This document shows, in pieces, positions 22,087 to 57,939 of a stretch of 64,000 nt of DNA (positions are counted from its first letter, which is position 1; every line of letters begins with the position of its first letter). Under the pieces are notes generated by a model that was not told the DNA's origin, searched no databases, and saw only the letters and a program-made list of their open reading frames with translations. The stretch is taken from positions 1 to 64,000 of the forward strand of contig CAJNYD010000503.1 in assembly GCA_905331295.1 (NCBI GenBank), in the 5' to 3' direction. The position numbers were made by a program, and so were the translations under genes. The stretch comes from Rotaria socialis. Taxonomy: Eukaryota.

Positions 22087-22109
22087 AGATATTGCTTTTC
22101 AGTCCGAGA

Positions 22110-27954: not shown

Positions 27955-28520
27955 TAATCTTCTAATCGAGTAGTCGTGATTCGAAGTTTATCTATAACAA
28001 ACGAAAAAGTTTCCTATGATAGAAATATCAAAATTATTATGAATATCGATAAGAACTCGATTTATATATTTTTTTAGAAATAAAAACATCATTGTGTAAC
28101 ATATACCTTCGATGCAGAAAATACGAAAGAGGGCGCCCGATGATGGTTATAATATATAATCAATATTTTTTTATAGAATAGATCTGAAATCGAAGCTGGA
28201 ATATTATCATTTTAAAAATTCGTAGTATTATCTCGATTCTTTTTTTCGCAAAATACTCGAGATTTAATTGATTACATTATCCATCTATTTTATTATACTT
28301 GGAAAGTTTTTATTGGAGTATGATGTCAAGATGAAACGACAGATTAATTCCTAGATATTATCGAAATGAATACAAGAGAAGAAAGATTGTTTTTTCTATT
28401 TTAAACTTTGAGCGTGTCTTCAAATAGAACATATGTTTGCCTATTCGATTTTATAGTAACGAACAGAGAAAAACATTATACCTCAATTATATTAATCCAA
28501 AGTGGATTTAAAGTTAACTA

Positions 28521-30715: not shown

Positions 30716-30796
30716 GGTGGAACTCACATATATTTTCGAAGAAAATGTTCAGTGTAAGTTTAAAAGCGAAATTTTTGCGGCTGCCCCTTCCCCATG
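30716..30796 (+). repeat. Dispersed MITE-end fragment shared with ~43592-43668
   Basis: gtggaactcacatatattttcgaagaaaatgttcagtgtaagtttaaaagcg...ccccat found at both sites. Confidence 0.7.
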
Positions 30797-31253
30797 ACAA
30801 ATATTAATGAGTTCTAAATTGTGCTACACTAGGAACTTGACTAATTAGGCTGCTGCTACTTCTTGTTTTTTAGATTACAGGCTTCACGGAAAAAGTCAGA
30901 TTTGCCCATTACAGATCAAAGCAACTAGTCTCTGAAATTGCTAAAGATAGCAGCTAACAACTTACTATGGGGGAAAATGGATTCATTTTTCAATAACTGA
31001 ATATTCTTCATTTCTTTTCTTTATATCGTACTATTTCGAAAGAATAAACGTTCGTTTCACCGTTAGACTTGGATTGGACCGGCGGCCCAAAAGAAAAAAA
31101 CGTTTCTTCGATTCATTTGCTCGCTCATACATAGTCAACTTGACTTATAGGATAATGCATCTTTGTTTCCTCTGACGATATCAGGCAATTAGATGAAAGA
31201 AATATGCGTATATAAATAATCACATTTCTGAGTTACAAAAGACACATACAGAA

Positions 31254-33042: not shown

Positions 33043-35393
33043 TTTTTATCAAATATTGTTTAAATAAAATGTGTTCAAAACGAAATCATTATGAAATGAA
33101 TGAGAAAAAATACTTTCAAAAATCTGAATTGATAGGAAAGAAATTATGTACTATCATAGTCAGAAAGAATCATTTGAATCCAACGAATGCCATAAATTAT
33201 ATTATTATCTATTGAATTAATAGATAATATATCATTTACATTTTGTCCATTTATTTTCTATATTATACTTTATTTATCTTTCGTAAGAATTGAGTAAGAT
33301 GTTTATTTTTATGATGTTCGAATTTACAGGGAAATTGAAAGAAAATGGCACTCAGATAAAAACTGTATAAGTCGTGAATTCAATTTTATTTTTTTCGAAC
33401 TTCAAAAAATAGGATTTAAAAAAAGAAGCTTTCAATCTTCTACTATCAAGTTTGTTTTAATAATCGTTTTGAATATCAATCTTCTAAATTTGTGATTTAA
33501 ATCAAAATATTATATTTCACATCATCTTGGTCATTGTATGAAAGAAAGCGACACAAAACCATGATCGTATTTTCCAATCTTTTTATTTTCTCATCAATAT
33601 AAACATGAACCCATTTTCATATAGACAGTTCTATTGTATTTATAACTTCTTCTTTGTAGTGAGGATGTAATATATCTAGGTCTTTCGAATTCGATATGAT
33701 TTTGAATTTGTGATTTAGTCTCAAAGTTATTTTAATTCTAATATAAGTCTAATGCTAAAGCTGTGGGTTTGTTGTTTATCTACTTTGCAAATAAGCAATT
33801 GATTCAATTCATATGATTTCGATAGTTTATAAAGTTTTATCAAGAGAGAAAGTGCAGATTTGGAACTCTCAGCACTAGACAGTGATTTTGGTACTTGGTA
33901 CCTGTACTTTCCCCCTTGGCTATTGTTCAATATATATATATGTATATGTATTTAGGAGCCATTTCACGTAAATCACCATCGGAATGGCTCGAACGAGTGT
34001 CGTCAGATTTCCTTCAATTTAGAATCTTCTCGTCGAGTGAAGAATCTTATGAGCTTTGGTGCAACCCGTTTTGAACAAAATTAAACTATAGAGTTTTTAT
34101 CGTTGCTTCACAAAAATGACCTAGATTAAGAGGGCCTTGACAAGACCATATCTCAAACAATGGCATTACCGATTGAGCCGAAATTTTTCAAGGAAATAGA
34201 TTCTCATGAATTATCAGTAATATGAAATTTCCACTATCGATAAACAGCTTACCGGTGAATATCTTTGAAAAATGTGCAACTTTTCATACTCTGCCCTGCC
34301 ATTCATAGGCATGATTTTGAGATAAACTTTTCTTCCAACAAATAAGGATGATTTGAAGGTTGAACTTGCACAATTAGAAGACCCATCTGAGATTTACAAC
34401 ATCATGGTAAAGATTTCCGTATTCGAGAACTAAATTACTAGATCAATGCTATTCTGTATGTTTTAGAAACAAACAGTACTCTGAATCGAAAAAAGTTCAA
34501 GATCAAGCAATAGAATGGTAAATTGCTTTATTTTAATAGTGGTGTTAAGAAATATCAAGCTAGCTATTTTTTCTGGCATAATGCCAATTGCCCTGACCAG
34601 ATTGACTGACCAATTCGAATAATCCGAAGAAGAGTTATTTCGGTCAACTGTATACGACTGCTACCATTACTTTTCCTATGATTTTTTCATCAACATATAG
34701 AGAGGATACGTCAAATTAGTAATGATACAACAAAAACTTGCCTTTCTTCAACGTATCACGATTGAGAACGCACAAAAACAAATTGAGTTCGTAAATTTTT
34801 ATTCGAATTATACCAGATGGCCCTATTCATTAAATAATAACTATCACGACTATCAAGTACATTTTGGTTGAATTTAAGACGAATTTTTTGTTTTCTAGTT
34901 GTAATAAATTCCCGACGTTTACAAAATTTTAAAGAAAGATTATATGTGAAAAATTGATACTTTTATTATATATAACAACAAGAGTATTTTAAATCGATTA
35001 ACATTCAAATATTGAACGAGCTTATTTATATCATCAACGAGTCAGTATTCGTTGTAACAGTCAACCTTTCACTTTCATCAAACTAACTTATGACAGCTAT
35101 ATCTTCTTATTTCTTCTTTGGCACATTCCTGATTGGTGCTAAACTGTTCGTTGTCCTTGAATAATGAGTGAGGCTATTGATGAAAGAAACAGCAAATGAC
35201 TAGACGAGAGCAGTGAATAAGAAAAAATAGTTGAACTACAAATAACTTTTGGGCATCATTCATCGAGTTGTACTATCGATGGTAGACAGAAAAAAAACTA
35301 GGCAAAATTGAACATAGGAAATAAACAAGTGGTAGGACTCATTTATCATATAGATCGTGGTGCGAAAGTTACGGGACAAAATATTTGTTCATT

Positions 35394-36232
35394 TTTTACC
35401 CACTTGAAAGTACTCGAGACAAGTGAAAAGGAATCATGTAGAAACAGAATTCGATGCTCTGTTTGAATATGGGCTCCGAAAGTTTTTGTCTGATTTTTCT
35501 CCGGAGTAGGAAGGGAATCTTAGAAAGACCTGAACAATTTTCCATACATTTTCGTATTTCCATTATTGGAATCGGTAACTAAAAGTCGGAACCTTTATTA
35601 ATACATTAACTTGTAGAGCAAAATTTATCCTACGAAATTCACTATTTCCGTTCTTTTTTTTGTCTTTTGGGAAAACACCTCAATTTTCGTTATTCTTGCA
35701 CTCTTTTTCGTAAAAAGTTCGTTACACACGAAATGCCTATAGTTTTATTTGAGTATAAACTACAGATTAATTCAATATTTCATTTGTAAAAACATATTTG
35801 CTGTACAAAAATTATCGAGTCGGATAAATGTTAGCATCTTTACCATGGGACCTATAGAAGTTAGCTAAACCTGTTATTCATTGCTGGAGATAATCTTTTA
35901 AGCCTTAACAAAATGAAATAACTAATCTCAACCAAAAACAGACAGAAATTTTCCAGGTCAATATTCAGAAAGAGTGCAAAATTTTGGTTCTAGTCCATAG
36001 CTTTTAATGCGTACGACATACTTTCAAGCAAGCCAAAATAAAAAATATACTGTACAGAAACTTCGACCCACTTGTTCCGTCCAAATTAATTTTTTATGCC
36101 TCTTAGATATTCCCTCAATACTCTAGAACAAAATTAGACAAAAAATTTCTGAGCACATTCAGAAAGAGCATCAAATTCTGGTTCTACATGACATATTTTC
36201 ACTTGTCTCGAATACTTTCAAGTGGATCAAAA
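35394..36232. mobile_element. MITE-like element with ~100-bp diverged inverted repeats
   Basis: ccacttgaaagtactcgagacaagtgaaaa...gatgctct pairs with agagcatc...ttttcacttgtctcgaatactttcaagtgg. Confidence 0.65.
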
Positions 36233-38026
36233 ATCTCGTCATATTACTAAAAAAATTGGCATTAACCGAAGACAAAGAATTTTCATGTATTAGTAATGTA
36301 GAAATTTGGTTACTTGTTCACGTCATCATTCGAATTTATATCCAGACATATATCTTTCTCCCAATTAATTTTTCGTTCTACTCTTTATTAATTCCGAATG
36401 GTCTGATTTAAACTGTAGCAATAGTGGAATAGTCTTCAACATAATTTGTTTATTAAAACAAGAAGTGATATTAATGTTCATCTACGTGGTTGCTGCATTT
36501 CTCTACACATGTTTTTATTTAACGAAGATCGACTACACCATTACATACGTAGTCCTTATTCGATGGTCCATTGAAGCTACATTGGCTTCGTATATTTTTT
36601 GGCATACTATATTAAAGGTAACGAAGTTTGTCTGAATGGACCTCATTTATCATCTATTTTTGCAATGATTATCAAGGTGCCATTATTCATAATGATACGA
36701 TATACCGAAAGTGAATCTGATTTTTTTCTACATGACTTAGGAAAGTTTCTTTTTCATACGTTATGTTGTGTATCTAAAAATAAAGTATTTGATTTAGAAG
36801 GTAATCATTCATTGAATCGTCAATAGGCCTCGTATTTTTCTTTCGATAAAATATCAATAAATCGAATTCTAGTAAAAAACGATTCTTAATGCGGTAAAAA
36901 TCCCTTCTGGTTTCGATTTGCAAAAAAATTGGAATTTTACTTTCTGACCAAGAAGGAAATTATAGATTTCAAGACTTGAAAATCATTCGGAAATTTATTT
37001 TACAAGTTTCTGAAAAACAAAAGAAAGGCAGAAGTGACAAAAAGGACATTACGAATGAAAGTGAGTGATATCATTCCCAAGAAATGTCAATAGTTTCGGT
37101 TCCGACATGATCCTAAAAGTGTTAATGAAAATTCGAAGCCGATTTCGATTCAAACAAAGTCGATTTGGTGTTATGCCTATCGAAACCAATACTTTTTAAC
37201 GGATTAGACCAAGGTAAAAATTGTAAAATATCAACTTTGTCTGATAGGATAAAATACGTGTCCGAATCGAAAATTTACTTATTAAAATTGTATATAGAAT
37301 TATCAGCATTCAACGTAATTCTAATCATGTTTATTCCTTATTTTTAGAAAGCAAATTTATAGTTCTGTAATTGATATTCAGCATTGCATAGTATTGTTTT
37401 TTAGGCTGTCATCTTCTCAGAATGAGAGTTGTCTGTCGATCGTCTCAAGAAAAAATACGTAGAATATATAACAATGAGCACATTTAAGTAGACTTATCAA
37501 ACAAGTTTATTTTCTATCAAACGAAGAAAAATAATTTGATTGACTGCAGATGAATCTAAGGTATGATGGGAAAATGTCGAAAACAAAATTGAGGGATGAA
37601 AATGTGGATGTAACAGTAAGGGTGATGTTTTCGATATTTTTCCATCCATTCACTTCGATACGACATATACATGCCTAACGAAAGAGAGAATAGACGTTTG
37701 TTGTAACAATCAAAGTGCGTTCGACCAATGATAACGCTAATAGGAAATGACCGGTAAACAAGCACGGCGACAGAAAGGAAGAGAAACGACGGACGTTCTT
37801 TTTCCGTTCGTCATCTCCTATGCTGCTCAACTGCTTCAACCGTAACACTGTTGAGCAAACAATATCATTTTTAATAAGCGAATAAGACTGAAAAAAAGTC
37901 GATTCGATTCGACTTCTTTTTGGATTGCTTTTTGGATTGCTTTTTGTTGATTCGATTCTCAATGATTAACTATCCTTTAGTTCGAAATATATTGTTTTTG
38001 TTCTCAGACAAAAAATAAATAGATCA

Positions 38027-39770
38027 ATGAGTGATACACCGAAAAAGAAACGAATTGAAGAAAGCGAACAGGTTGTTGATGAAAAATACGAATATATTAC
38101 AAAACTACCTGATGGAGGTTATGGTTGAGTAATTGCTATTACTGCGATGGTATTTTATTTTTTAAATTTATTATCATTAATATTTATTTTATTTTATTTT
38201 GCTCATCGACTTAGCTTTGTAATCTTGTTTGTGATGGGACATTGTTTACTTTCGATAGCATGAAATTTAATTTACAAAAACATTTTGGATGTTCTGACAT
38301 GATTATTCTTCTCGCGGTATCTGCTCCTTGTGGCATTTATTTATTAGTTGGTATGTTTAATTTCGTCTTTTTACGAAAACTAAAACAGTTATTTTTTTTT
38401 TGTAAAGGTCCAATTGTATCAGTTCTCTCTAAGAGATATAGTTTTCGACTAACAATTATAATTGGAAGCATTGGTTCAGCTGCTTGTACATTTATATTAA
38501 CTATGTCAAGAAATCTTATGGAATTCATAATTATTCATGGAATAATTGGCAGTGTGTTTTTTTGCATGGTTTATCTTTCGTTCGTAGAATTATTTAAAAA
38601 AGAATGTATCCATAATTTTCTTTTTTTCTCGATAAATCTAGATCAATAGTAGTGATTTCATTTTATTTTGACAAAAAACGAGCTATTGTCAATGGTATAT
38701 GATCAGTTAGTCAATGCTGTGTTTAGATTTGTGTATTGCTTGTTTTAGGATTCGTTATGGCTGGCGGAAACATTGGTGCTTTAATATTTTATCCATGGTC
38801 TAAGTATGTGATGGAAACGTTTGGTTGGCAACGTGCTTTACTTACACTTGCTTTTATCATGCTGACATGTATTTTATTCGGAACAATAATGAAACCATTA
38901 AAACCAGAGCGAGTACCAATACAGCGAACGGGTGTAAAATCATTGTAAGTATCTAATCATTTTGTTTATTTATTGTATAATATTACATATAAGGATATCA
39001 TAAAAACAAAACCGGATCTTACAACAGCATCGTCAACTGATGATGCGAATATGGTAAACTTGAAATATATTAATATTTGCAAAAATAAAGTTTATATTTT
39101 CATAGCCATCATCGTTCTACAATCATGCAATGAATACGAATGATCAAATTAATGCTCCTGATGTTTCAAATTTAATTGTAACATCTTCACATGGTGGTAC
39201 TAACACAATATCACCATCACGTCGACCATCATCGAATGCAAATGTTTCTCATCTCTTTGGAGTTCCCGATGCAGAAAATGCATGTCGTCCATTAGATAAA
39301 AAAGATGTACTATTCACTGGCTCAAAACAACAATTTCATACATCACAAAGCAACACGTATGCACCATCGATGATAAATTTTTCAATATTGAAAAATTGGC
39401 AGATGCTACTAATTTATATCGGAAATGTTTTTTCTATGGTTGGATATGGTTTATCAATCGTGAATCTTGTTTTACTTGCAGTTTATGGTCATGGGTTAGA
39501 TATAAGAAGTGCATTACGTTTAAGAAACGTATTTGGTAAATGCAAAAGAAACATAACAACACGATGAGGAACTAAATTATAATCTATTTTTCTTTTTTTA
39601 GAATTTTTCTATACATTAGGCCTACTTTCAGGAGGATTTATGACTATGATACCTCATCTCAGTGCTTTACGCGTTCATAATACATTTTTATTCATTGCTG
39701 GTATTGTAACCGTTTTAGCTGCTTATGCAAATAACTTCATAACTCTTGCGCTCTATGCTGGTGTATTTGG
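38027..39770 (+). pseudogene. Monocarboxylate transporter (SLC16/MCT, MFS) with a nonsense mutation and 3' truncation
   Basis: PDGGYG* (TGA 38126-38128 replaces the conserved Trp); YFDKKRAIVNG, FGWQRALL; coding sequence runs into (GGGTGT)n after YAGVFG, so the final TM helices are missing. Confidence 0.85.
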
Positions 39771-40711: not shown

Positions 40712-43418
40712 TTATTGAATAGAAAAGCGTTGGATCCTGTGAGGCCCATTTTGACCACTCTCAGAGACGTAAATATTGCCTTGACGGTCGAAAGACAAGC
40801 CTACGGGCCAATTTATCGGAGTATCTACACCGATGATGGCAGTGCCTTGTATTGCTCCTTGAGGCCAACGAGTTACTCGATGGTTTCTCGATTCTGCTAC
40901 ATAGAGCGTACTAAATTCATCAACAAAGAGCCCTTCGGGATGCGACAATTGTGTCAGAGCAACACCTTTTCCTTGACCGCCAGCAGCGACAATTCCTGCT
41001 GTAGCGTTTTTATTCCATTTCATTACACGATGATTGAGATGATCGGACACGTAGACAGCGTTTTGTTGATCGACAAAGATGAAAAGTGGAGCATTGAGTT
41101 GACTGAGACCAGAACCTTTTCCATGTCCACCAGCGACAAGATCTCCATTCCTCATGTCTCCTTCCATTCTATATCGTCTTACTTCTTGTTTCTCATTATC
41201 AGAGACGTATAGACATCGTTGATTATCCATAAATAATCCTCTACAACAGACATTATTGATAAGAATCTCACCTTGTATAGTTTCATTACGACGAGACCAT
41301 CGAACGACTCGTCGATTTTGCCAATCACTAATAATGAGACTATCAGTCTCTTTGTCAATTAATACATCAGTCGGACAACACAATTGATTTAATCCATTTC
41401 CTTGGCCTTTTCCTCCAGCTACGACTTGTCCATTTGTGTCACCTATCTTCCATTGGACGATACGATTATTCCAGCTATCAGCAATGATGATCGTTTGATC
41501 ATCATCAGCAACGGAGAGACTATAAGGCCGACAGAGTTCATTAACGATATTGCCTACTCCATTGTTTCCGGCAACAGTCTTTCCATGTGGTGACCATTGT
41601 GCGTTGACAGGAATCCTAGGAATCACTACAATAGATAAACAATGACAAAAACGATTAAAATAAAAGTTCTAGCAAAGTTAATTCTTCATGTAAATAAAAC
41701 GAAGAATGAACTGCGAAATATATATGGGCGTGGACGTAGGTGTGGATCTTGCGTTTCTCCTCATTCAGACCCACACCCACACCCTTTCTGAAATAAAAAG
41801 TGAATAAATGAAGGAAAAACTAGATGCGTCTGTGATATTGGTAAAATGGTTTCCATTTATTTTCTAGAAAATAGCAGCGAATAAGGCATATACAGAGAAA
41901 AATAGATGACGATAGAGAGTGAAAAAATATTTATACACGAAAATGAATTTTTCCGTCCATTTTGTTTGTTATATCTCGATCGTTTGGCAGTAAAGGCCTT
42001 CGAATCAGGCTCCAAACATCCTTATCTCCGGACTCGGGCCCTGTTTCAAAAACCTGATTTTGCAGCTTTCTATTCGACATAAATATAATGACGAAGGGAC
42101 AGTTTTTGTATTTGCATTGCGGACACTTTCAGATTTATTCAATGGCGTTCCCTGTCAAATTCAGCATCAAAATGTTTTATTTCCACGTCAGTGTTTCCAG
42201 AAATTCGTATGTAGAAAAGTCTTTCAGTTGTTAACCGATGTGGAATACTATTTCGATCAGCTGCATTGTCAGACTTCGCAGTTTAACTATTATCGATATC
42301 TTGGCCCTTCACTCATTCTGTCAGAAGAAGCACTTATGAAAGCTCACTAAATGGCACTGCAATTATTTAAATTCGTGATACTAATTTATTATAGATTGCA
42401 ATCTTCACCTTGATTTCTCTCCCGTGAACTTTTCCCGAGAACTATGATCACATTAGTAAATCTTACCACTCCTTACCATTCCTAAGTAACAGTAGTGTCA
42501 AACTTGAATTCGATTGAAAATTGAAATTTTCAATTGAATTCAAGTTAGACATATATGGAAATTTTTATTGGTTCAGTGCATACTGAAATCTGATTGCATA
42601 ATAGAAAACTATGCAATAAAAATATTCAGGTCATTGTTTGTCTGATGAATTGACCTTGAAAGAACACACCCTCAAAAAGATGAAGGACAAAAACAATGTC
42701 CAATCAGATAAAGAACTAATATAGAGAGAAAGAAGAAAATAACATGCTACTAGAAAGGAAACATCACCAACATATTTGAAAAAGTTAATTCAGATCAATT
42801 TTTGAACAAAGAGTTAAGATGAATTGCTAAATTCTAATGAATTCTGTCGATAGGTTTAATTTTAATATACTCACAGTTCTGTGGTTTACAAATATAAATC
42901 AATTGACTCCAATTAATTTGATCATTATCAATTATGATGGTTTTATTTTCACATTCTTGAATAAATTGTTGAATTTTTCGTTGCGTTTCATTTAATTTCT
43001 GCTTCAGTCTTTCAATATCATTTTCAGCAAAATTTTCTTCTTGTCGATGAGAACGAATTTCTTTTGTAATTGGTTCTAGTTCTTGTATTAGAACTGTTCT
43101 TTGTTTATTGATGAGTTCAGTGAGTTCATGATGAGCATTTTCTGCTGCTTTTTCAACTTTTCTAATTGTTGTCTTTTTCCATTCTTCAATTTGATCAAAA
43201 AGATTGAATGATAAATAATTTGGTTGGTCTAATTTTTGAATTTGATCAAAAAGTTCATCATGTGATTGAACTATTTCGTTATCGAATTTCGTCGATAAAT
43301 CTTGTTCATGTTCTTTGAAATCCTTTGAGCAAAAATAATTTTTACATCCAACACAAAATCGTCTAGCGGCTGGTTTATTACATGTCGAACATAGATTTGA
43401 ATCATCTGTTGTTGCCAT
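40712..43418 (-). CDS. B-box + coiled-coil + NHL-repeat protein; exons 43418-42875 and 41625-40712
   Basis: CSTC...CVGCKNYFCSKDFKEH B-box; NHL repeats (VAGGKGQGNGLNQL..P, YVSDHLNHRVMKW); compatible phase-1 donor and acceptor. Confidence 0.8.
41726..41785. repeat. Inverted telomere-like junction inside the putative B-box/NHL intron
   Basis: gggcgtggacgtaggtgtgg...acccacacccacaccct. Confidence 0.85.
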
Positions 43419-45363: not shown

Positions 45364-46903
45364 TTTCGTTGTTATATTTGTCACTTGATACTTTTTAATT
45401 AGCGAAAATGAATTACTCATAGTATTGTGTTAGTTCTACTCACCATCACCTTTTGTTGATTCTATAACTCGTTGAAAATTTAATTGTTTGCCATAAAAAA
45501 AAATACTTTTCTTTATATTCATACAGTACCATAAGAGAATAAACGAGCAGCATTCTTTCACGCGCGGAAAGAAAAGTTATTTTTGCTAAGAATACGACAT
45601 GAGTTTGTTTTGAAGTATTTCGATAGTATATGACTCATTAACATACAAGAACAACATAGAGTCAGCTGCAACGAATCGAAATGTTTGTAAAGCATTATTA
45701 TGATGCTAAATCAGCGGAGTGAGGGCGGATGAGCTGATTGGAATCATACTCAATTATTGATAATCATTGCAAATTACAGGCAATCGACGTTGATCAATAG
45801 CAATCGATATTTTTTTAATGGAAATTTTACAAAATGCTTATTCTATACTAGAGCGATAGACGCGTCTGCACATGAAGCAATTGATGAATCGATACAATGT
45901 TGATTAGACAGACTTGACTGAGCAATTATAGAAGAATATTCATTTTATTTTAATTGCATAGATTTATTGGGAACTGAACTATTACTATATTAATGAAAAA
46001 TCTATCATCGCCTATTACGATAAATGAGTTAGACGCGTATGTCCGAATTGTCGAGCATTTTCTTGTTACAAATTCTAACAATGATATCTGATTTCATGCT
46101 TGCTAAAAGAATATGTATAAATGAGTGTCTTCGTATGAGTGTTTTTACATGATCGGCCCAACAATGGCAAAAAACCAGTGCTACATTAGTGTTGCAATCG
46201 TTGAAGAAATCACATGTTTCCGACGTTTTGTCGAAACTGGCTGATAAAAAACATTCGAGGCATCGGGACAGACTGAGCACTCAAATATACTTAGGTTAAT
46301 CCGAACGTTGTGTCGAATATTCTTTGTTTCTGAATAGTAGGCTCAAAGAAATTTTGTTTTTATATGAAATAATAGAGAAAAAGATCTACTATTTTTCAAT
46401 GTTACTTCATCAGTGTGGAACTTAACTTTTGTAATTGATCGAAGCATAGGATGTGAGGCTCTGTTAAACTGTAACAGCTACATCCTTACCAGTGGCGGAA
46501 CCACAATAAGTTTAAGACGAATTCGACTGACATACGGAGATTATCGGATCCGGCCAAACAACGAAATCCGCTCGTATCCCGGGAAATGCAACTGAAAAGA
46601 GATCCAACCGATGAAATATATTTTATTAATCGGCTACTAAGTACTATCTGGCAACATTACGAGAGGCCGATCAAAACTTCCACTGAGATTCTGACAAATG
46701 GCTACAGTAGAATCTGATAACACACAATATTAGGGATTCTTATATCGTTTTCGTGTAATCCAATAAACCTAAACTACGGATTGTACCATGCATATCGATA
46801 GGTTATTGCAATCCGCTTCAATCAAACCACATTTTGATTTAAACGTTAGCACTGACACATGCAAATATAATTATTTTTATGAATTGATAAATAATGGAGA
46901 TCT

Positions 46904-46964
46904 TGAGGGTGTGGGTGTGGGTGAGGGTGTAGATGACCAGAAGAATCACACCCACACCTACATC
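46904..46964. repeat. Inverted telomere-like junction
   Basis: tgagggtgtgggtgtgggtgagggtgt...cacacccacacctacatc. Confidence 0.9.
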
Positions 46965-47257
46965 TTGGAATTACGTAGCGAAAATGAATATGATTTGAAG
47001 CCTACCATTGATCAAATAAAGTACGAAGTTTTTGGCGACGAAAATGTGATGAGTAATGCTCGTACATGTGATTCCGCGGTATCCATTATGGGAAAATATA
47101 CAGATGTTGAAATTTTTTTCAATTATACTCTCAGTGAATTTCCTCCCAATCGTGAAATGAAATCGCAAACACTAAGGCTAGATGATCCTCAGATCGCAGA
47201 TATTCTTTGTAATATGTCTAATACTTATTACAGCAGAAGTGATTACTCGAAAGCGCT
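46965..47257 (+). pseudogene. Internal fragment of a TPR-repeat protein, bracketed by two junctions
   Basis: DDPQIADILCNMSNTYYSRSDYSKALE is TPR-like; no start or stop of its own between the tracts. Confidence 0.6.
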
Positions 47258-47321
47258 TGAGGATGTGGGTGTGAACAGGAGTTGTACACATGCATGACGT
47301 GCACACCCACACCCACACCTT
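47258..47321. repeat. Inverted telomere-like junction
   Basis: tgaggatgtgggtgtg...cacacccacacccacacctt. Confidence 0.9.
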
Positions 47322-47599
47322 AGATTGAATGTTTTCTGTAGTTCAATTATAGCTGAAAGAAAGATCGATGTCTACTTGAATTTTATGAGTAAAATACATA
47401 GTTTCGTTTTAAAAAGCTTTTCTGTCTTTCGTCACTCCATTTTAAATATCATTTCAATAGAATTGAATAGATGCCGATTTTGTGTAATTGACACTGTTTC
47501 TGGTTTATTAATTGGAGTTCTAGCAACGGTAACTTACGTAGATAGGATATAAAAGGAAAAAAAATAGTTTCTTATAATCATTAGATAAAAAATGATCGA

Positions 47600-50175
47600 T
47601 CATGAATCAATGAATGGTGGGATTGAGTCGCATATATGAGGATCATCTGAACGAGCTGTCTTGAAATCACACAATAATTTTCGACGACATTCATGATCAC
47701 ATTGACTCCCATCCTTATACGATTTCGTGTAGTGTTTGTATATGGAACTCATCAATGGGCCGTCAATATCATTTTTTAATCTGTCAATTAAATCATTCCA
47801 ATCGTTTGGGAATAAATTCTTCATTTGATAGGCATCTCGTGCTTCGTATTCGTCTTGTATTATTGTTCTGTTGTACATGTTTGATGCAGTCAAATTCATA
47901 ATTACCGTACGATGATCCAATACCCAATATGAACTTCCTGAATAGTTCCCATCCATTGTATAGATCCGATAGCTTGGATTCGAAAATGGTCGAGGACTCA
48001 AAGAAGGAGTTATATAGGCCTTAAAATGAAGAGAAAACGAAATAGACGATTTGCTTTCCTAAACTACACAAACCATGGAAACAGGACGGTTTGAATCGAC
48101 TTCGTCGTAGAACATATTAAACTCATCATAATGTGTATGACCATAGAATTGACCGGCGATTGTATTCTCATATCTAAACTTGTTTCTACAAGTCAATATA
48201 AAATATTTATTTCAACTTCTCACCGATTGACGATTCGATTAAAATTCCAACTAAAAGCTGCTAGACAAAAACGAGGTGGATGATGTCCAATAATATGAAC
48301 TTTTTCTTCATGATCTTCAGCATATTGCAACCATTGCACCAACTATAGAATAGTGTTTAAGTAGCATTGTTTTTCTTTTATCTACCTTCCTTCTCAAAGC
48401 ATACTCACCCACTGAAGTTGATCAAGTGGATCGGTCGCATTGATCAATAACCAAAAGTTTTGTGGTGAACAATAATTCATATTGAGCGAAATCAGGCGTA
48501 GACCGGGACGTATCACTGTTGTATAGAAAGCTCCATGCAATATACTGTCACGTGTGTTAATAGGTAAACCAAGTTTAATCCAACTACTTGCCAATACTTC
48601 GTACAACCAGGAAATATTTTCTCCTGGAATCATCGGCGTTGGAAAAAGTTCTGAGGGTGCTATAAATAACCGACAAAGTACATAAAACATGAATAGCCAA
48701 TGAAACATAGATCATCGTCGTATTTACCTGCTTCATGATTACCAACTGTCGAATAGAAAGTTTTGTTTGGAAAAATTTTGGCTAACAAGTCATTCATGGT
48801 ATTAATCGTGTAGATTTGATCAGCACGAGACTGATTCCACACATTATGAGGTGGCAAATCTCCAGTATAATAGACGAAATCAATATTCTAAAATAGAAAC
48901 AGACGGGTTATTCACTAGAAAAACATGCAATATTTTCCCTAATGACATTTTCTACTGCTGCGATATGCTGAAACATAGCTTCAGCCGTCCAATAGGGTAA
49001 ATCACAACCACGATAGTCGCCCCTAAACAATTCTTAGATGATATTATTCTACAATAGAACAAGAAAATACATACCAGAAACCGGCACCCGTCTCACTAGG
49101 AACTAAGATGAGATGTAGAATCTTTAGAATTATGATGCACAAACGAAATACTCACGAGGCTGACCAAATCGACAGCAAACAGGTTGAAAACATTCCGCTT
49201 GAGATCCGGGTTTGTATCCAAAATCGACATGAATATCAGACAAATGAAGGACAGTCAATTTCGGCGATTCAGGCTAACATACAAAAAATTTTGTCAAATT
49301 CCTGAGTTTTCTTCGACTGCATGATTTCAGAGACAATAATATTAGAAAAAGGAATTGGTTTTTTTCATTGTATAGAAACATGGGCGTAGTACAAAGTTAA
49401 ATCTCAACTTATCAATATTGAATATCGACGGAAAATTCGAAAATGAATTAAAGTGTATGAGAATCAAATGCAAAATAAGTTCTCATATCTATCAACGGCA
49501 ATGCGAAGAGTGCAAGAAAAATGCAGACATACCGAAGGAGGTTGCGGTGGACGTGGAGGTGGTTTTCGACCGGGCACAGTGATATTCCAGTTCAATTTAG
49601 GAAAATCTGATTGATTCTCACAATCAAGAGCAAGTGCACACAATTCTCTACTAGTGAGTGAAGATGCACCAATAACTTCTATCACACACTCCTATCTGAG
49701 CGAAGATTCAAAAATATTCGATAGTTTAGTTAATCAAAATCGGTTACCCAGTATTCGTATATAGCGCCGACGCAAACATCGATATCAAGCAAGCCAAATT
49801 CTTTACAAAGGTTAAGTGCCAAATGTCTAAATTGTTCGGTTTGATTGTTCTCGATAATTAAACGAGTCTGTGATATCAAGATTAGATTATAGAAATATGA
49901 AGGTTAGATTCGCTCACTACTGGCACGAGTAGATTGCAAGCTTCACAATAAGTTGCAGCATCATATTGATGTTTAAGTGCCCATCGAAATGTGTTGAGAT
50001 TGGGCGAATGTTTAACACGGTGACGAAAATTTGCAAGATCGATAGAATGATCTTTATCACTATTGATTGGACCGTTTACAATTTGATGAACAACATCTTG
50101 CTTAACCGATCGAGCATCGATCGATGTGTGCAAATTAAATAGGGTGACAAGAAGAATGAAGACGAAGTATAACAT
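47600..50175 (-). CDS. SMPD1: Acid sphingomyelinase (signal peptide, saposin B domain, Pro-rich linker, metallophosphoesterase), about 11 exons
   Basis: YCEACNLLV saposin; [68 protein letters not shown]. Confidence 0.9.
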
Positions 50176-51040
50176 CAACGAAGATTTTCTTGAGGTGTAA
50201 AAATGCTACTGAAGACCAAACAATGAAAGAGAAAGACACGATGCTTATCAACATAGTTCTCTTATCTTTTCTTATTTGACTACGAACAATATCTCAAGCT
50301 GATACTTGAGCATATTATCTCTGTTTCGATGGGTTTTGATTTCAAAATGCCACGATTTATTAAACGCAGAAGCCTATTCATTGTGATCTGTTTTACCAGT
50401 CATGTGACATATAAAATCGATTGTTCCGGATTTTTATACTATTCTTAGAGTGTTGGGGAAAAATTTGCGCCTATCCCCTAGAGAATTTTGGCATTACTCA
50501 TTGGCCAAACTCGTGCATCAAATAATATTCATTAAGCACATCCAATTATTTTATTTATCTTTTATTTTCTTGAAAATCATTTTTTGTGCAATTAGTTGAT
50601 TATGGTATTACTAAAAATCGGAGTCCATTGGATTCATCCTGAATTTGGTCAGAAAATTTTCTGTTAGTGCTGGATTCAAATTTGCTTTCAGTTCTTGAAA
50701 CTTAATATTAATCTAGTTTGACTACTAAAATGTTGAACCCGATGAACTTTACTCGTCGGAGAAATGTGTAGACTGCACTACGTAGTCACTGAAGACAAAC
50801 AAAACGAGACGAACTATTTCATATTCTTGGGGGCGACTATCCGATTCAGACTTAAACTCCACCTGCAGTACAATATTCCTGTGATAGAGGTGAAACGCAG
50901 CGAACATAATCGAAGGTCTATGAATCACATCATTTTTCGAAAAATCACCAGCCAAAATCGTGTGCTTATATCAAAATATGCTGATTTTCTACGATTTTAA
51001 ACCGAAAATCGAAATGTCTCTTCTCACACCCTTAAAATCT

Positions 51041-51085
51041 TGAGAGTACGAGTGAACTATACATTTAAACCCACGCCCACACTCA
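51041..51085. repeat. Inverted telomere-like junction (degenerate G arm)
   Basis: tgagagtacgagtg...acccacgcccacactca; an extra cacaccct at 51025. Confidence 0.55.
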
Positions 51086-51770
51086 TGTTGCTTGAAAACC
51101 ATTACAAAGCCAATGCAAAGTCTGTTCAATTTCATAGCTGTTTTAGAACCTGTATATGTTCCTTTCGTCTATTTGACGACAACATCAAATTTCTGGATAT
51201 TAATTAAAACAACGATTCATCGTGTAACTACTTGATGAACGATTCCAACGAATCTCAGCCGTGATTAAACACAACTTAGATCGCCATTATCTCATTAATG
51301 AAGAAAATACTGAAGTGGTGATGATTTGCTTGAGGTTTTCCTCTTGTAATGCTACGTTTTTATAACTTGATTTTTGACGCAGATTTGAAACTACTTGTTC
51401 ATTGGCGTTTTACGAGACGCGTCTCCTGACCACATACAAAAGTGGTTTTATCATATAAACCGTCATTTGTGACTCACCTTTAGTCACAGTTTTATACGCT
51501 TCATGTTCATATGTTGTAACAATTCTCTTCCTAATTATTTATTTAGGATTTCGGTATTTCGCCAATATAACTCGCGGTTACATTGCCGTGATAGTTTTAC
51601 TTGTTAAGATTCCACCAATCACACATCTTGAATAAATATGTAAAAAAATCGTTTGCTTTTATTGCCCCATGTTGCGAAATAACTGAAGCATCATATGTTT
51701 TTCTTGATTTGGCAGAGAAAAATGTGTAAAATCATAAATGTAATTGTGTCGCATATTAGAAAAAGCCGAA

Positions 51771-53503
51771 ATGAGAAGAAAGCGACGACAACGAACTTGT
51801 TCAACACTTTTGGAAGGTTTGCCTAATGAATTATTGGCTCAAATATTCTCTTATTTAAATGGAGTGGATGCTATTTATGCCTTTTCATGTCTTAATAATC
51901 GTTTTAAATGTCTTCTTATCGAAACTTGCGAATTGTTTGATTTTAAATCAATCAGTAAATTAAAATTTGATCTTGTCTTGCAGCATCAAAATACAAAACG
52001 ATGGAAATCATTAAGAATTTCGGATGATGAACATACACCTGGTCATACAGAATACGTTTGTCAAGTTTATTCTTTAAGCAATGATTTTCCTCAATTACAA
52101 TCGTTAGTCCTTTTACATTTACACTCTCAAAAGATGTGCACTGTTTTATCCCAACTTTCATCTTTAAAAACTCTTGTTTCATTAACAATTAAATCTTTAT
52201 GTCGTGAAATAATGCCTCCACTTGATCTTCCAAATCTGAAAAAACTTGTTTTCGGTGCATGTTCTCATATTGATTGGATAAAAGTAAATTTAAAAGCACA
52301 GAACATTGAATCGTTTTCTTTATTACTTTTTTTAGAATTTTTCTCAACTTGAAAGTGTTGAATATACAATAGAAAATTGTCATTGGTTTATAATAAACGA
52401 TTTACCATGGCCATCAACATTAACACATCTTAGAATTATCTTTCATTATGAAGAATGCTGGAGTATTATACAACGTTCACTTTTTCATTTATCATTACTC
52501 AATACTCTTGAAATATATCAAATACAAAGAGCGACAATGCCTCCTAATGGCCAAATCTGGGAAACCTTGATTCGTTCATCTCTTCCATTATTAAAAATCT
52601 TCAAATTTTATTTTAACTTCAAGTATTCATTGCAATCACCTTATCAAATGGATGAGGCCGTAGCATCATTTTCCACGCCGTTCTATATACTGGAAAATAA
52701 ATGGTTTATTCGTTGTGATATATCTGACCGTGGCTGTGCACTTCTGTACTCACTACCATTTCCTTTCGAAACTTACACAGCTTTGCAAGGTAATAACATC
52801 AAAACTATTTCAACTTTTTTTGGATGATTACAACAACGATTTCTATACTAATATATTCTCAAATGTCACAACACTAGAAGTCCTATATAAATCTTCTGAA
52901 CCCGATGAAAACTTCCATTCAAACGGACTGATTAATTTGACTATTCATAATGATTTTGATTCAATTAAATGGATGCATGTATTGAATAAACTACAACATT
53001 TAGAGATGCACTTTCTTACCGCGATGCCACCAAACAATTTTCTTCATATATTGAAAAATGCACCGCATTTACGTTCTTTAGTTACAGAAAAGAGAATTTT
53101 ACAGATAGCGACAGAACATTGGAATAATATTTCTATATGTGATCATCTATCTTGCAAGATTATCTCGTTAAAATTATGTGGACGACACGCACGAACACAA
53201 TATATAAATAAACATGCAACTCAACAAATTATTCGGATTTTTTCCTCGAAATGTCAACATTTATCTTTATGTATTCAGTCATCAGACAATACAATCGGTT
53301 TTATTTTAGAAAACATGCCTCAACTACAAAGTTTACATGTCAATATTTATGGAAAAATAAAATCCTTAATTGATATGACATGGTTACAAAAGGAACAGAC
53401 TATATTCAATAGTTCGAATTGTATTATACTTAGTAATGGAGATGATCATTATTTTTGGTTAGGAAAACATCAATCATACAAGAACTTGAAGTGTGTAAAG
53501 TGA
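51771..53503 (+). CDS. F-box/LRR-like protein (intron ~52284-52335) with a +1 frameshift in the T7 run near 52815-52821
   Basis: LEGLPNELLAQIFSYLNGVDAIYAFSCLNNRF; GQIWETLIRSSLPLLKIFKFYF, FSTPFY, LYSLPF; the frame shifts into ORF 52715-53503. Confidence 0.75.
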
Positions 53504-53587
53504 AATATAGTCTCTTTAAAGTCAATAAAAAGTTCCTTTTCTTGTTCATGAATAAAATTTAATATGTTGATGAAGTGTGGATAGGAC

Positions 53588-55640: not shown

Positions 55641-56085
55641 TAAATGGCAGTTTATGAATCGCTGTAAAAACGCTGTATTTCAATCGTTTATTACTATTTA
55701 TAAGTCATTCCATCCCATCTAAATAAATGCTTCTTTTATTGTATAAGACTCCACCAGATTACACTCAAGAATTTTTAAATATTTGTTTTTTGCGTTTTAT
55801 ATGCCACACTATCCGTGCGCATCGTAAAAGGTACGTAAACGAATATTTTTATTTGAAAAACTTAATCTGAAGACTTTTTCTTTTTCTCCCATACACTTAA
55901 TTATTCAGGTAAATACTTTTTTTTTATCTTGTCCTTCATACTACGTCAATAATTTTAGCAAGAATCAGTTATATTTGTCAGTGTCGTCGTCGTTTTTCTT
56001 ATCAAATTCGTTCTGATCCGCAAAAAAAGTGTTATTCATTTCGCTAAATTCATTTCGTGTGACGTCGATTTATTGTCTGCATATC

Positions 56086-57939
56086 ATGTTTCTCCTTTGG
56101 CTATTTTGTGCTTTACCCATGACAATAGTCTCTGGGTTAAGCGGTAGTTTATATTTATTTGCTAATGAATCCGTAGATTCTCCTGTTGTCACTACGACAT
56201 CGGGTAAATTCGCTGGCTTTACTATTCGACAGACAAATGTTTGGGTTGGAATTCCTTTTGCTGCTCCACCTGTTGGCGCATTACGATGGCAAAAGGCTCA
56301 ACCATATGTTGTGACTGATAGCCAAAACGACGCAATACGAAATGCAACTTATTACAGTCCGTTTTGCCCACAAATTGATCGGGGAGGCGATACTTCAGGC
56401 CCATTTAATGAGGATTGCTTATATCTAAATGTCTGGTCACCTACCGCACCATCAACTAAACCAAACGGTTATCCTGTGATGATATGGATTCATGGTGGAG
56501 GATTTAAAGAAGGAAGCGCCACGCTAGTAATCTACGATGGACTTAGTTGGACGAATGCCGCTATACAAGAAAATAACCCATTTATTATGGTTAGTATGAA
56601 CTATCGACTGAATGTGATGGGATTTTTTGCTCAATCGAGCTTATTAGATGAGAATGGACAGACTATTGGAAATCAAGGTATTACTGATCAACGTATGGCA
56701 ATGAAATGGGTTCGCGATAATATTGCACAATTTGGAGGCGATAAAAATTATATTACTCTTATGGGTGAATCGGCAGGATCTCAATCAGTTTGTATACATT
56801 TGATATCACCATTGTCGGCTGGGTTATTCCATGCTAGTATAATGCAAAGCGGACCGTGTGATGCTGTAAGTATGTTGCGTGATAAATCATTTGCATATTC
56901 AACAGCAAATAATCTTGCATTATCTTTTGGCTGTAATATGACTAACTCAAGTCAACAACTAGATTGTTTACGAACTGTTAGCAGTACTCGACTAGTAGCT
57001 GCTATAGGCAACGTGTCTATTCCACTGTCGACATCATTAGCATTCAAAGATCAAGAGAAAATTGGGGAAGCTTTTCCATTTGGCTTGATCGTTGATGGAG
57101 TGGAAATACCTGTTCATCCACTTCAAGCTTTTTTGACGGGACAAGTCAATCAGGTACCTACATTAACAGGAGCAAATCGCGATGAACTTCTTTTACGTGC
57201 TTTGTATCAAGAATATTTTTATCCACCGACCAGCACTGAAGATTACTTAACTCGCATTCTTCCAATTGCAGGGTATAATAATCATGATATTAAGACATTG
57301 TATGCTCCAAGTCAATTCAATGGTAATTATTCGCAAGCGTTTGTGGCCTTATTTTCTGAAGGTATCTTTGTCTGCAGTGCTCGTCGAATGGCGGGATATA
57401 TGACTGAACAGCCGACATATTTATACACATTCACTCATGCACCAGAGTCCTTTTTTTTGACACAACCAGCCTTAATCATGTGGCCTGGCGCATATCATGG
57501 AGCCGAAATATTTAGTTTGTTTCAAACAGTAGCTGCTACATTTTATGGAAATATGATTTTCAACGCCGATGAAATACCCTTGGCTACATCTCTTCGTCGA
57601 TATTGGACAAATATGATTACAAAACATCAGCCTAACGATAATATTAGTTTCACATGGCCTCAGTATTCGTCTACCACTGATCGGGTTTTAGTGCTCAATA
57701 AAAAGACGACTATTACATCCTTCATTGAAATGTATCCGAACTGCGACCTTATATCAGATGTACAAGCCAAAGTTTACGGCGAATATCTTGGCTTCAATGC
57801 TACGTGTACGGTAGGAAACAAATGCTTTATTGTTGATTCCACCACAACCACTAGACAAACATCTACTAGCAATAATCTACGTTGCTGTCAGTTTAAATTG
57901 CTCTTTTTGCTTTTTTCATGCATTATACTTTTGTTCTAA
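56086..57939 (+). CDS. Type-B carboxylesterase, intronless, with a signal peptide and a hydrophobic (GPI-like) C-terminus
   Basis: GIPFAAPPVGALRW, EDCLYLNVW, WIHGGGF, GESAG nucleophile, GANRDE acid, AYHGAE His. Confidence 0.92.
   Translation: MFLLWLFCALPMTIVSGLSGSLYLFANESVDSPVVTTTSGKFAGFTIRQTNVWVGIPFAAPPVGALRWQKAQPYVVTDSQNDAIRNATYYSPFCPQIDRGGDTSGPFNEDCLYLNVWSPTAPSTKPNGYPVMIWIHGGGFKEGSATLVIYDGLSWTNAAIQENNPFIMVSMNYRLNVMGFFAQSSLLDENGQTIGNQGITDQRMAMKWVRDNIAQFGGDKNYITLMGESAGSQSVCIHLISPLSAGLFHASIMQSGPCDAVSMLRDKSFAYSTANNLALSFGCNMTNSSQQLDCLRTVSSTRLVAAIGNVSIPLSTSLAFKDQEKIGEAFPFGLIVDGVEIPVHPLQAFLTGQVNQVPTLTGANRDELLLRALYQEYFYPPTSTEDYLTRILPIAGYNNHDIKTLYAPSQFNGNYSQAFVALFSEGIFVCSARRMAGYMTEQPTYLYTFTHAPESFFLTQPALIMWPGAYHGAEIFSLFQTVAATFYGNMIFNADEIPLATSLRRYWTNMITKHQPNDNISFTWPQYSSTTDRVLVLNKKTTITSFIEMYPNCDLISDVQAKVYGEYLGFNATCTVGNKCFIVDSTTTTRQTSTSNNLRCCQFKLLFLLFSCIILLF

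What the first reader, a model, noticed from the sequence alone, without database searches (positions are those of the whole stretch)
46904..47321. Minimal cassette: a ~290-bp internal TPR fragment capped on both sides
Seen: a startless and stopless TPR-like coding piece begins right after a CCCACA arm and ends (YSKALE, gcgcttgag) on the TTGAGG start of the next G arm. Inference: so small a piece from the middle of a gene has no obvious use for a promoter or terminator, which favours fragment capping over a regulatory role for the motif.
Basis: partly seen in the sequence, partly recalled or inferred. Interest (0 to 1): 0.75.

Follow-up and report, generated by a model that had tools for sequence, protein, structure and literature searches.

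The report
Gene scrap between two telomere-repeat scars
A 293-base piece from the middle of a rotifer-type ADP-ribosyltransferase/TPR gene sits between two short face-to-face runs of the bdelloid telomere repeat, which are likely scars of broken DNA ends that were capped like chromosome ends and then joined, one small seam in a region that looks stitched together from about nineteen such pieces.

Summary
At 46903-46964 and 47258-47321 a (TGTGGG)n-type G tract faces a (CCCACA)n tract across a 14- or 28-nt non-telomeric spacer. Between them lies an open, startless and stopless 293-bp piece.

- **Homology:** 85 of 115 ART-TPR and other TPR proteins hit the piece. None of the 115 hits the 2 kb on either side. 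The piece matches residues 318-445 of a 608-aa relative.
- **Support in reads:** contigs from two studies carry the whole structure. At 80% likeness or more, no second copy of the piece appeared in two DNA runs, so no close parent gene was seen.
- **Context:** the window holds about 19 such junctions, always in G-then-C order. They mostly lie between genes.

I could not tell whether the piece was ever a free fragment or is what remains between two local breaks.

One arm of several junctions starts with a fixed 10-nt leader, ATCTTGAGGG. The same leader occurs in other loci of this genome and in metagenome contigs. That suggests RNA-templated addition from a defined template end.

Earlier agents of this scan reported the same junction type in other bdelloid genomes. 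The piece is not the smallest cassette here: an 85-bp one lies at 1821-1905.

The parts
46788..47297 (+). 169-codon ORF that runs from an upstream ATG through the left junction and the gene piece to a stop inside the right junction. Most likely accidental.
   Evidence: One search lists the ORF. Residues 1-39 match no family member. Telomere hexamers contain no stop codon in any frame (read from the sequence).
46900..46909 (+). Leader ATCTTGAGGG between unique DNA and the G tract of the left junction.
   Evidence: One search finds 3 exact copies in the window (9895+, 22081-, 46900+), all at tract starts. One search finds the leader plus TGTGGG in L013, L018, L037 and L047. In one search, table 7, X1 contigs diverge from the window just left of 46900 (7 contigs) and 46901 (5 contigs).
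46903..46932 (+). G tract of the left junction: TGAGGG TGTGGG TGTGGG TGAGGG TGTAG. It caps the right end of the 5.1-kb segment to its left.
46933..46946 (.). 14-nt non-telomeric spacer, ATGACCAGAAGAAT.
   Evidence: It has no match of 7 nt or more in the +-400-nt flanks beyond shuffle expectation.
46947..46964 (+). C tract of the left junction, CACACCCACACC. It caps the left end of the gene piece. The following TACATC may already be gene sequence.
   Evidence: In the alignment, YI pairs with WV/VI of P0002.
46965..47257 (+). Internal piece of an ADP-ribosyltransferase/TPR family gene: the linker after the ART domain plus the first TPR. It equals residues 318-445 of the 608-aa P0002.
   Evidence: It is single-copy at 80% likeness or more in X1 and X6.
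47256..47273 (+). Partial leader CTTGAGG, which overlaps the codons Leu-Glu of the conserved ...KALE, followed by the G tract ATGTGGGTGTG. It caps the right end of the piece.
   Evidence: D1: 94% identical to 46902-46919. Alignments end at residues 156-158.
47274..47301 (.). 28-nt non-telomeric spacer.
47302..47321 (+). C tract of the right junction, CACACCCACACCCACACC. It caps the left end of the segment 47322-51036, which holds the acid-sphingomyelinase-like gene. The F-box gene lies in the next segment, 51086-53586, beyond the degenerate junction at 51037-51085.
   Evidence: In one search, table 7, 12 X1 contigs and 10 X3 contigs diverge right after 47319.

Best explanation
The 293-bp piece is a leftover from the middle of a bdelloid-type ADP-ribosyltransferase/TPR gene, and the two face-to-face telomere-repeat modules that bound it are likely scars of double-strand breaks whose 3' ends were extended with telomere repeats and then joined to other ends capped in the same way.

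Shown:
- The tracts are the bdelloid telomere hexamer.
- On both sides of the piece, and at every other junction in the window, the G-rich strand runs 5'->3' towards the end of its segment. That is the polarity of addition to a 3' end.
- Homology to the gene family starts and stops at the tracts.
- The flanks are unrelated to the gene.
- The structure is present in contigs of two studies.

Inferred:
- An RNA-templated polymerase made the tracts. This could be telomerase or the reverse transcriptase of a telomere-attached retroelement.
- Some ends were primed at a fixed point of the template, which gives the leader ATCTTGAGGG before the repeats. Other ends were primed inside the repeat and start with GGGTGT.
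- At the right end of the piece, the gene's own ...CTTGAG probably paired with the leader part of the template.
- Two capped ends were then joined by end joining with 10-35 nt of filler.

Not decided: whether the piece was a free, doubly capped fragment that was later captured, or what remained in place after two nearby breaks.
For: **Polarity and number.** With a strict match (up to 1 mismatch) there are 8 complete G-then-C pairs and no C-then-G pair. With up to 2 mismatches there are 17 pairs within 60 nt. Two more degenerate junctions lie at 18605 and 51037.

**Edges of the homology.** 85 of 115 proteins hit the piece and 0 of 115 hit either 2-kb flank. 12 of 58 alignments start exactly at residue 60, and most end at residues 156-158. 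No other part of P0002 or of the 11 other top-12 hits occurs elsewhere in the window.

**Not a repeated mobile unit.** The interior is single-copy at 80% likeness or more in X1 and X6.

**Not an assembly artefact.** X1 and X3 contigs span the whole structure with 3 and 0 differences.

**Genome-wide family.** At least 24 other contigs join a like G tract to a like C tract through other spacers. The 12 shown are 17-37 nt long (table 5c: 12 shown, 12 more not shown).

**The leader.**
- 3 exact copies of ATCTTGAGGG occur in the window, all at tract starts.
- The same 16-mer occurs in 4 metagenome loci, and TCTTGAGGG next to a tract in 2 more, L010 and L036.
- TGAGGG is the first unit in 7 of its 8 uses. 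TGTGGG is first in 6 of 16.

**Literature.**
- TGTGGG is the bdelloid telomere repeat (passages of PMC7943196 and PMC8494291).
- Telomeric repeats and Athena fragments were seen at deletion breakpoints in A. vaga lines (passages of PMC13564844).
- Terminon 3' ends carry (ACACCC)n or (TCACCC)n (passage of PMC6431247).

**A parallel case.** In locus L008 a gene of the same family matches residues 1-301 of the 554-aa P0083, and the match stops at a G tract.
Against: - Most junctions lie between apparently whole genes, not inside them. Examples are the DUF7932 ORF at 2119-5409 and the carboxylesterase ORF at 56017-57936. Random breakage would not give this without selection or a bias in where breaks fall.
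- The spacers are unexplained. They are not copied from the +-400-nt flanks. In the window they share 6-mers no more than shuffles do (p=0.14).
- In five metagenome loci the centre is conserved: AAAGAG(A/C)A(G/C), seen. One RNA(?) contig of X10 carries this very spacer inside other flanks (table 8, record 8). Both observations fit a module that is copied as a unit.
- The leader sits on only one arm of a junction.
- No parent gene was found. Yet the piece keeps 97 open codons while being only 38% identical to its nearest relative. That fits poorly with an old, neutrally decaying scrap.
- Nothing here shows which enzyme made the tracts.
Confidence: 0.62

Rival explanations
1. The G tract, spacer and C tract form one unit: a foldback patch copied from a hairpin-shaped RNA or DNA template and laid into breaks or joins in a single step. 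On this reading the tracts were never separate caps on the ends of the piece.
For: - The leader is on one arm only, as expected if copying starts at one fixed template end.
- The centre AAAGAG(A/C)A(G/C), flanked by GAGGGT/ACCCTC, is conserved in L010, L018, L036, L037 and L047. In 4 of those 5 it has the same orientation relative to the leader.
- An X10 contig holds 46926-46957, the same spacer with 1 difference, within other flanks.
- Three or four window spacers share (A/G)TAGAA(A/T)-type words.
Against: - The 19 window spacers, and the 12 others listed from the genome, differ in sequence and in length (10-37 nt).
- 6-mer sharing among the spacers is not significant (p=0.14). Enrichment of purine runs is marginal (P=0.03 and 0.13).
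- Arm lengths differ independently on the two sides.
- There are no target-site duplications (read).
- This model still needs a break on each side of the gene piece.
Confidence: 0.2
2. The hairpin modules are functional intergenic elements, such as terminators, insulators or origins. They are kept by selection between genes, and the TPR piece is an incidental pseudogene remnant lying between two of them.
For: - Most junctions lie 70-900 bp outside ORFs and bound gene-sized units.
- Each can fold as a DNA hairpin better than shuffles do (z -2.6 to -6.5).
- The RNA(?) contig of the sphingomyelinase-like gene ends at 47542, before the junction.
Against: - Two modules bracket a 97-codon mid-gene scrap, and two more bracket an 85-bp AT-rich stretch, where nothing needs regulating.
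- Arm length, spacer and degree of decay vary widely, and several junctions are badly degenerate.
- A function would not explain why gene homology stops exactly at the tracts.
Confidence: 0.06
3. Each cassette (C tract ... G tract) is a mobile element with telomere-like terminal inverted repeats that has picked up host gene pieces. It would resemble the telomere-bearing transposons of ciliates (recalled) or gene-fragment-carrying MITE-like elements.
For: - The cassette has inverted telomeric ends (I15: 11-nt arms, 100% complementary).
- A leader-like subterminal motif exists.
Against: - The interior is single-copy.
- The leader is present at only one end of this and of other cassettes.
- There are no target-site duplications.
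- Cassettes tile the region with only 10-35 nt between them.
- No transposase was found among ORFs of 75 aa or more.
Confidence: 0.03
4. The 169-codon ORF is a real chimeric gene, or the left module is a short intron within it.
For: - The frame is open for 169 codons and starts with ATG.
- The module length (about 60 nt) is near the 66-68-nt introns seen in the neighbouring gene (joints 48342>48409 and 48659>48728).
Against: - The 39 upstream codons match nothing in the family, where an ART domain should precede.
- Telomere hexamers are free of stop codons in every frame, so read-through is expected by chance.
- Family homology resumes in frame right after the C tract, so no splicing is needed.
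Confidence: 0.03

Closest known systems
Neotelomeres, 'fusions of neotelomeres' and inward telomere fusions (TTAGGG)n-(CCCTAA)n in human cancer genomes (PMC11293586: summary and discussion passages read)
   Same: Telomere repeats are added at an internal break in the standard orientation. Such ends are then fused, which leaves short interstitial tracts. Short non-telomeric insertions occur at the joins.
   Different: - Here the scars are germline and fixed. They are identical in runs of two studies.
- The tracts are very short, only 2-5 repeats.
- The scars are dense, about 19 in 64 kb.
- They come in pairs around every segment, including pieces of 85 and 293 bp.
- Many start with a fixed leader.
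Short interstitial (TGTGGG)n stretches and Athena/Terminon chains in bdelloid subtelomeres (PMC2861651, PMC6431247 and PMC3846280 passages). Gladyshev & Arkhipova 2007 and Arkhipova et al. 2017 were not held.
   Same: It is the same repeat and the same kind of genome region: TPR, NHL and F-box families and foreign-looking genes. Tracts are added to truncated ends. The variant unit TCACCC/TGAGGG is known from Terminon 3' ends.
   Different: - As described, those arrays are head-to-tail, with tracts in one orientation and retroelement bodies between them.
- Here the tracts face each other across a short spacer.
- No reverse transcriptase domain was found in ORFs of 75 aa or more.
- No hammerhead ribozyme family reached threshold.
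Neotelomere and Athena signatures at deletion breakpoints in irradiated or mutation-accumulation lines of Adineta vaga (PMC13564844, discussion and methods passages)
   Same: This is direct evidence that broken bdelloid chromosome ends receive telomere repeats.
   Different: That work reports single capped ends at deletions. It does not report paired face-to-face tracts that bound small gene pieces.
TERC-ITS: vertebrate interstitial telomeric repeats with an adjoining stretch copied from telomerase RNA
   Same: A fixed non-repeat sequence beside the tract would mark copying of template-flanking RNA.
   Different: No bdelloid template RNA is known to me, and the origin of the leader is untested.

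Membership tests
Fusion-type (head-to-head) interstitial telomeric sequence | Two tracts of the organism's own telomere repeat, G strand then C strand, at one site | tested here: met
   The repeat identity rests on passages of PMC7943196 and PMC8494291.
Fusion-type (head-to-head) interstitial telomeric sequence | The sequences on the two sides are unrelated, i.e. a true breakpoint | tested here: met
   85 of 115 proteins hit the piece and 0 of 115 hit either flank. One search finds no other part of the gene in the window.
Fusion-type (head-to-head) interstitial telomeric sequence | Derived from the ends of two whole chromosomes | tested here: not met
   About 19 junctions in 64 kb bound pieces as short as 85 and 293 bp. 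These cannot each be a chromosome-arm fusion.
De novo telomere addition (neotelomere) | Repeats begin at a non-telomeric breakpoint, with the G strand 5'->3' towards the end | tested here: met
   This holds at both ends of the piece and at all 17-19 junctions.
De novo telomere addition (neotelomere) | Made by telomerase | not testable with these tools
   There is only an indirect hint: the fixed leader and the preference for TGAGGG as the first unit.
Athena/Terminon (endonuclease-deficient Penelope-like retroelements) | Reverse transcriptase ORF and a 3' hammerhead ribozyme motif followed by reverse-complement telomere repeats | tested here: not met
   No RT domain was found in the 93 ORFs of 75 aa or more. 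No Rfam family reached its gathering score in the window.
Athena/Terminon (endonuclease-deficient Penelope-like retroelements) | Head-to-tail arrays with tracts in one orientation | tested here: not met
   All paired tracts converge. The feature is taken from a passage of PMC6431247.
Foldback / MITE / TIR DNA transposon | Target-site duplication, conserved termini at both ends, and many copies | tested here: not met
   No duplications flank the modules or the cassettes. The leader is on one side only. The interior is single-copy.
Spliceosomal intron / introner | Interrupts an otherwise continuous coding sequence and is removed from RNA | tested here: not met
   The upstream flank has no family homology. 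Removal from RNA could not be tested.
Bdelloid ART-TPR protein family (the gene piece) | Sequence homology to family members across the linker and the first TPR | tested here: met
   The best is P0064/P0002 at 38% identity, E about 1e-28.
Bdelloid ART-TPR protein family (the gene piece) | A complete gene: ART domain, TPR array, start and stop | tested here: not met
   Only residues 318-445 of the 608-aa P0002 are represented. The piece has no start or stop of its own.

The most novel reading that the evidence does not exclude
Bdelloid rotifers cap both ends of loose DNA pieces, even ones of 85-293 bp. The enzyme is an RNA-templated polymerase that starts at a defined template end, ...CCCACACCCUCAAGAU-3', and so leaves the leader ATCTTGAGGG. 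The capped mini-linear molecules are then strung together. This builds gene-patchwork regions and gives a physical route by which stray DNA, including foreign DNA, becomes chromosomal. The leader predicts the sequence of the still unidentified template RNA.
Probability: 0.22. Interest if true: 0.85.

Novelty: new variant of a known kind. Interest (0 to 1): 0.62.

Why it matters
Bdelloid rotifers survive massive DNA breakage and carry unusually many foreign genes. How broken or stray DNA is stabilised and built into their chromosomes is still open.

This small cassette is a clean natural control. A mid-gene scrap needs no promoter or terminator, so the tracts around it are best read as end caps. 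That reading then carries over to the gene-sized blocks nearby.

The leader motif, if it holds genome-wide, turns the question of which enzyme heals the ends into a searchable one: find the RNA that ends in its complement.

The searches of the open literature made here found no description of paired, spacer-separated tracts bounding small pieces, and none of the leader. Two key papers were not available, so priority cannot be settled here.

Earlier agents of this scan reported the same junction type in other bdelloid genomes.

Tried and rejected
- **Longer relatives by word search:** none found. The exhaustive search and a family search supplied them instead.
- **RNA evidence:** no RNA holder was listed for the stretch. 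X9 and X10, whose RNA status is itself a guess, laid nothing on the piece. This says nothing about expression.
- **Allele without the cassette:** none seen. The 'skips' from 46929 to 47302 all carry other letters between the two sides, so they come from other loci.
- **Spacers copied from nearby DNA:** not supported.
- **A motif shared by the window's spacers:** not significant (p=0.14). Enrichment of purine runs is marginal (P=0.03 and 0.13).
- **Pfam on small cassettes:** 114 short ORFs gave only a PRP4-like hit and a RING hit. No second clear mid-gene scrap could be shown. A PAN-domain ORF at 22113-22349 in the 598-bp cassette is a candidate.
- **Metagenome scan:** of 48 loci, about two thirds are ordinary GC-rich perfect hairpins unrelated to telomeres. 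Only about 14 AT-rich loci were used. I chose that subset by eye.
- **Rfam:** no family reached threshold.
- **Papers:** PMC5850863 and PMC1890498 are not held. The motif search in papers returned only unrelated primer matches.
- **Earlier notes for this genome:** none.

Full report
**What is there.** The stretch reads as follows: unique AT-rich DNA, then ATCTTGAGGG, a G tract (TGAGGG TGTGGG TGTGGG TGAGGG TGTAG, to 46932), a 14-nt spacer and a C tract (CACACCCACACC, 46947-46958). Next comes a 293-bp coding-looking piece. After it come CTTGAGG-ATGTGGGTGTG (47256-47273), a 28-nt spacer and a second C tract (CACACCCACACCCACACC, 47302-47319). One frame is open from an ATG at 46788 to a stop at 47297. 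The piece itself has neither a start nor a stop. The 12-mer GGGTGTGGGTGT, with up to one mismatch, occurs 30 times in the window against 0.03 expected. TGTGGG is the telomere repeat of bdelloid rotifers according to passages of PMC7943196 and PMC8494291.

**The structure is real.** One X1 contig covers 45500-48304 with 3 differences. One X3 contig, from another study, covers 46079-49323 with none. Either run may be the source of the window. All tracts are shorter than 31 nt and are flanked by unique sequence, so a repeat-induced misjoin is unlikely.

**What the piece is.**
- An exhaustive protein search with the 169-aa ORF gave 63 hits.
- The best match across the N-terminal part is P0002 (608 aa). 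BLASTP aligns ORF residues 54-158 with P0002 residues 310-447 at 38% identity, E 5e-28, with one 31-residue gap.
- A family search with P0002 returned 53 proteins. Their sources name them from Rotaria, Adineta vaga and Didymodactylos. Many carry ART or ADP-ribosyltransferase domains followed by TPR_12.
- The piece therefore corresponds to the linker after the ART domain plus the first TPR, roughly 52-73% of the way along the protein.
- Pfam TPR models on the piece alone stay below threshold.

**Do the alignments stop at the tracts?**
- Of the 58 BLASTP alignments listed, 12 start exactly at residue 60 (= 46965).
- Eight start earlier. Only one, P0003 at 20% identity, reaches left of the junction.
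- Four end after residue 158, none beyond 169.
- To avoid extension effects I searched the parts separately. Of 115 proteins, 85 hit the 293-bp piece at E<=1e-3, and the two best cover bases 1-291. None hits the 2 kb left of the left junction or the 2 kb right of the right junction (best E 0.017 and 0.012).
- No other part of P0002 or of the 11 other top-12 hits is found elsewhere in the window.
- The DNA-level version of the test could not be done as written. No genome is held. At 80% likeness or more, the interior is matched only by the locus itself in X1 and X6.
- So there is no close parent copy in those contig sets. That is odd for a scrap that still has 97 open codons.

**Context.**
- With a looser match, the window holds 17 G-then-C pairs within 60 nt. 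Two more degenerate junctions lie at 18605 and 51037.
- No C-then-G pair occurs at such a distance.
- The junctions cut the window into segments of 85 bp to 17 kb.
- Most junctions lie outside ORFs and bound gene-sized units: a DUF7932 ORF at 2119-5409, an NHL-repeat ORF, an acid-sphingomyelinase-like gene (47322-51036), an F-box gene (51086-53586), and a carboxylesterase ORF at 56017-57936.
- The focal piece is the smallest cassette with recognisable coding content. An 85-bp AT-rich cassette at 1821-1905 is smaller.
- Genome-wide, at least 24 other contigs join a similar G tract to a similar C tract through other spacers. The 12 shown are 17-37 nt long (table 5c: 12 shown, 12 more not shown).

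**A new detail: a leader.**
- Exactly three copies of ATCTTGAGGG occur in the window, at 9895(+), 22081(-) and 46900(+). Each sits between unique DNA and the first repeat of a tract.
- A one-mismatch copy at 51037 heads a degenerate junction. Shorter forms head the tracts at 47256 (CTTGAGG), 18605 (TTGAGGG) and 22046 (TGAGGG).
- Among hexamer units followed by TGT, TGAGGG is the first unit in 7 of its 8 uses. TGTGGG is first in 6 of 16. Most other tracts start with GGGTGT.
- In X1, contigs that match the G tract become unlike the window just left of 46900 (7 contigs), 46901 (5) or 46906 (8). There is no consensus further left (table 7, which is cut: 115 rows not shown). So other loci share the leader.
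- A pattern scan of metagenome contigs gave 48 loci. About two thirds are ordinary GC-rich perfect hairpins. About 14 AT-rich loci, picked by eye, carry the telomere-type module.
- Four of these (L013, L018, L037, L047) hold the exact ATCTTGAGGGTGTGGG. TCTTGAGGG sits next to a tract in two more, L010 and L036.
- One of the AT-rich loci, L008, encodes a member of the same ART-TPR family. It matches residues 1-301 of the 554-aa P0083 at 47% identity, E 4e-92, and the match stops at a G tract.
- The leader is present on only one arm of a junction.
- At the right end of the focal piece, the partial leader CTTGAGG coincides with the Leu-Glu codons of the conserved ...KALE. That suggests the gene's own end paired with the leader part of a template.

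**Spacers.**
- They are not copied from the +-400-nt flanks.
- Their shared 6-mers do not exceed shuffles (p=0.14).
- Enrichment of purine runs is marginal (P=0.03 and 0.13).
- By contrast, five metagenome loci share a centre AAAGAG(A/C)A(G/C), flanked by GAGGGT/ACCCTC.
- One X10 contig holds this locus's spacer (46926-46957, 1 difference) between other flanks.
- These points keep alive the rival that the whole module can be copied as a unit.

**Mechanism.**
- The polarity of every tract, the edges of the homology, the unrelated flanks and the single-copy interior fit break ends that received telomere repeats at their 3' ends and were then joined head to head.
- The leader and the preferred first unit suggest a template RNA read from a fixed point. 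This is an inference.
- The review passage on Terminons notes 3' ends with (ACACCC)n or (TCACCC)n. The latter is the complement of the TGAGGG unit.
- No reverse transcriptase domain and no hammerhead family is present in the window.
- Passages of PMC13564844 report telomeric repeats and Athena fragments at deletion breakpoints in A. vaga lines. That shows the capping step occurs in these animals.
- The closest general analogues are neotelomere fusions and inward telomere fusions in cancer genomes (PMC11293586 passages).
- Whether the piece was a free, doubly capped fragment or an in-place remnant cannot be told without the rest of the genome.

**Other readings.**
- A regulatory hairpin is weakened by this cassette and by the 85-bp one, though the modules do fold.
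- A TIR transposon fails on copy number, on target-site duplications and on the one-sided leader.
- The long ORF is most likely accidental, because the hexamers have no stop codon in any frame and its first 39 codons match nothing.
- An intron reading fails because no coding homology lies upstream.

**Earlier notes of this scan** describe the same junction type in other bdelloid genomes. One of them is a 1.7-kb gene remnant bracketed in the same way. I reached the same reading from my own calls. Those notes are not independent evidence.

**Verdict.** It is a new variant of a known kind.

Noticed in passing
window 1821-1905: An 85-bp AT-rich cassette lies between the junctions at 1767-1820 and 1906-1968. 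It is smaller than the TPR cassette and has no coding content.
   Followed up: partly
window 9895-9904(+), 22081-22090(-), 46900-46909(+), 51037-51046(+, 1 mismatch): The fixed leader ATCTTGAGGG sits between unique DNA and the first telomere repeat, on one arm of a junction only. It also occurs in L013, L018, L037 and L047.
   Followed up: yes
window 46926-46957, as seen in a 1093-nt contig of run X10: The same spacer and the adjoining arm parts (1 difference) occur in a contig whose flanks on both sides differ from the window. No explanation so far accounts for this.
   Followed up: no
L008:35-907 with the tracts at 884-899 and 915-972: A metagenome contig encodes the N-terminal 301 residues of an ART-TPR family protein (47% identical to P0083). 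The match stops at a long G tract that faces a C tract.
   Followed up: partly
L010, L018, L036, L037, L047 (junction centres): The centre AAAGAG(A/C)A(G/C), between GAGGGT and ACCCTC, is conserved in these loci. The spacers in the window, by contrast, are diverse.
   Followed up: partly
window 47542-50200 (-): This is an acid-sphingomyelinase-like gene. RNA(?) contigs of X9 show two minus-strand introns of 66 and 68 nt (48343-48408 and 48660-48727) and end at 47542, about 220 nt before the junction.
   Followed up: partly
window 2119-5409 (-) and 56017-57936 (+): Two long uninterrupted ORFs (a 1097-aa DUF7932 plus collagen-like repeat ORF, and a 640-aa carboxylesterase ORF) each fill a cassette between junctions. 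Their origin, native or foreign, was not examined.
   Followed up: no
window 22730-39764: A 17-kb stretch has no junction. It contrasts with seven junctions in 16.5-22.7 kb.
   Followed up: no
window 22088-22685: A 598-bp cassette has a PAN-domain ORF (22113-22349, minus strand, E 3e-5). It may be a second capped gene scrap.
   Followed up: no
window 42665-42675: An isolated ACACACCCTCA lies here with no clear partner tract. It may be a decayed junction.
   Followed up: no
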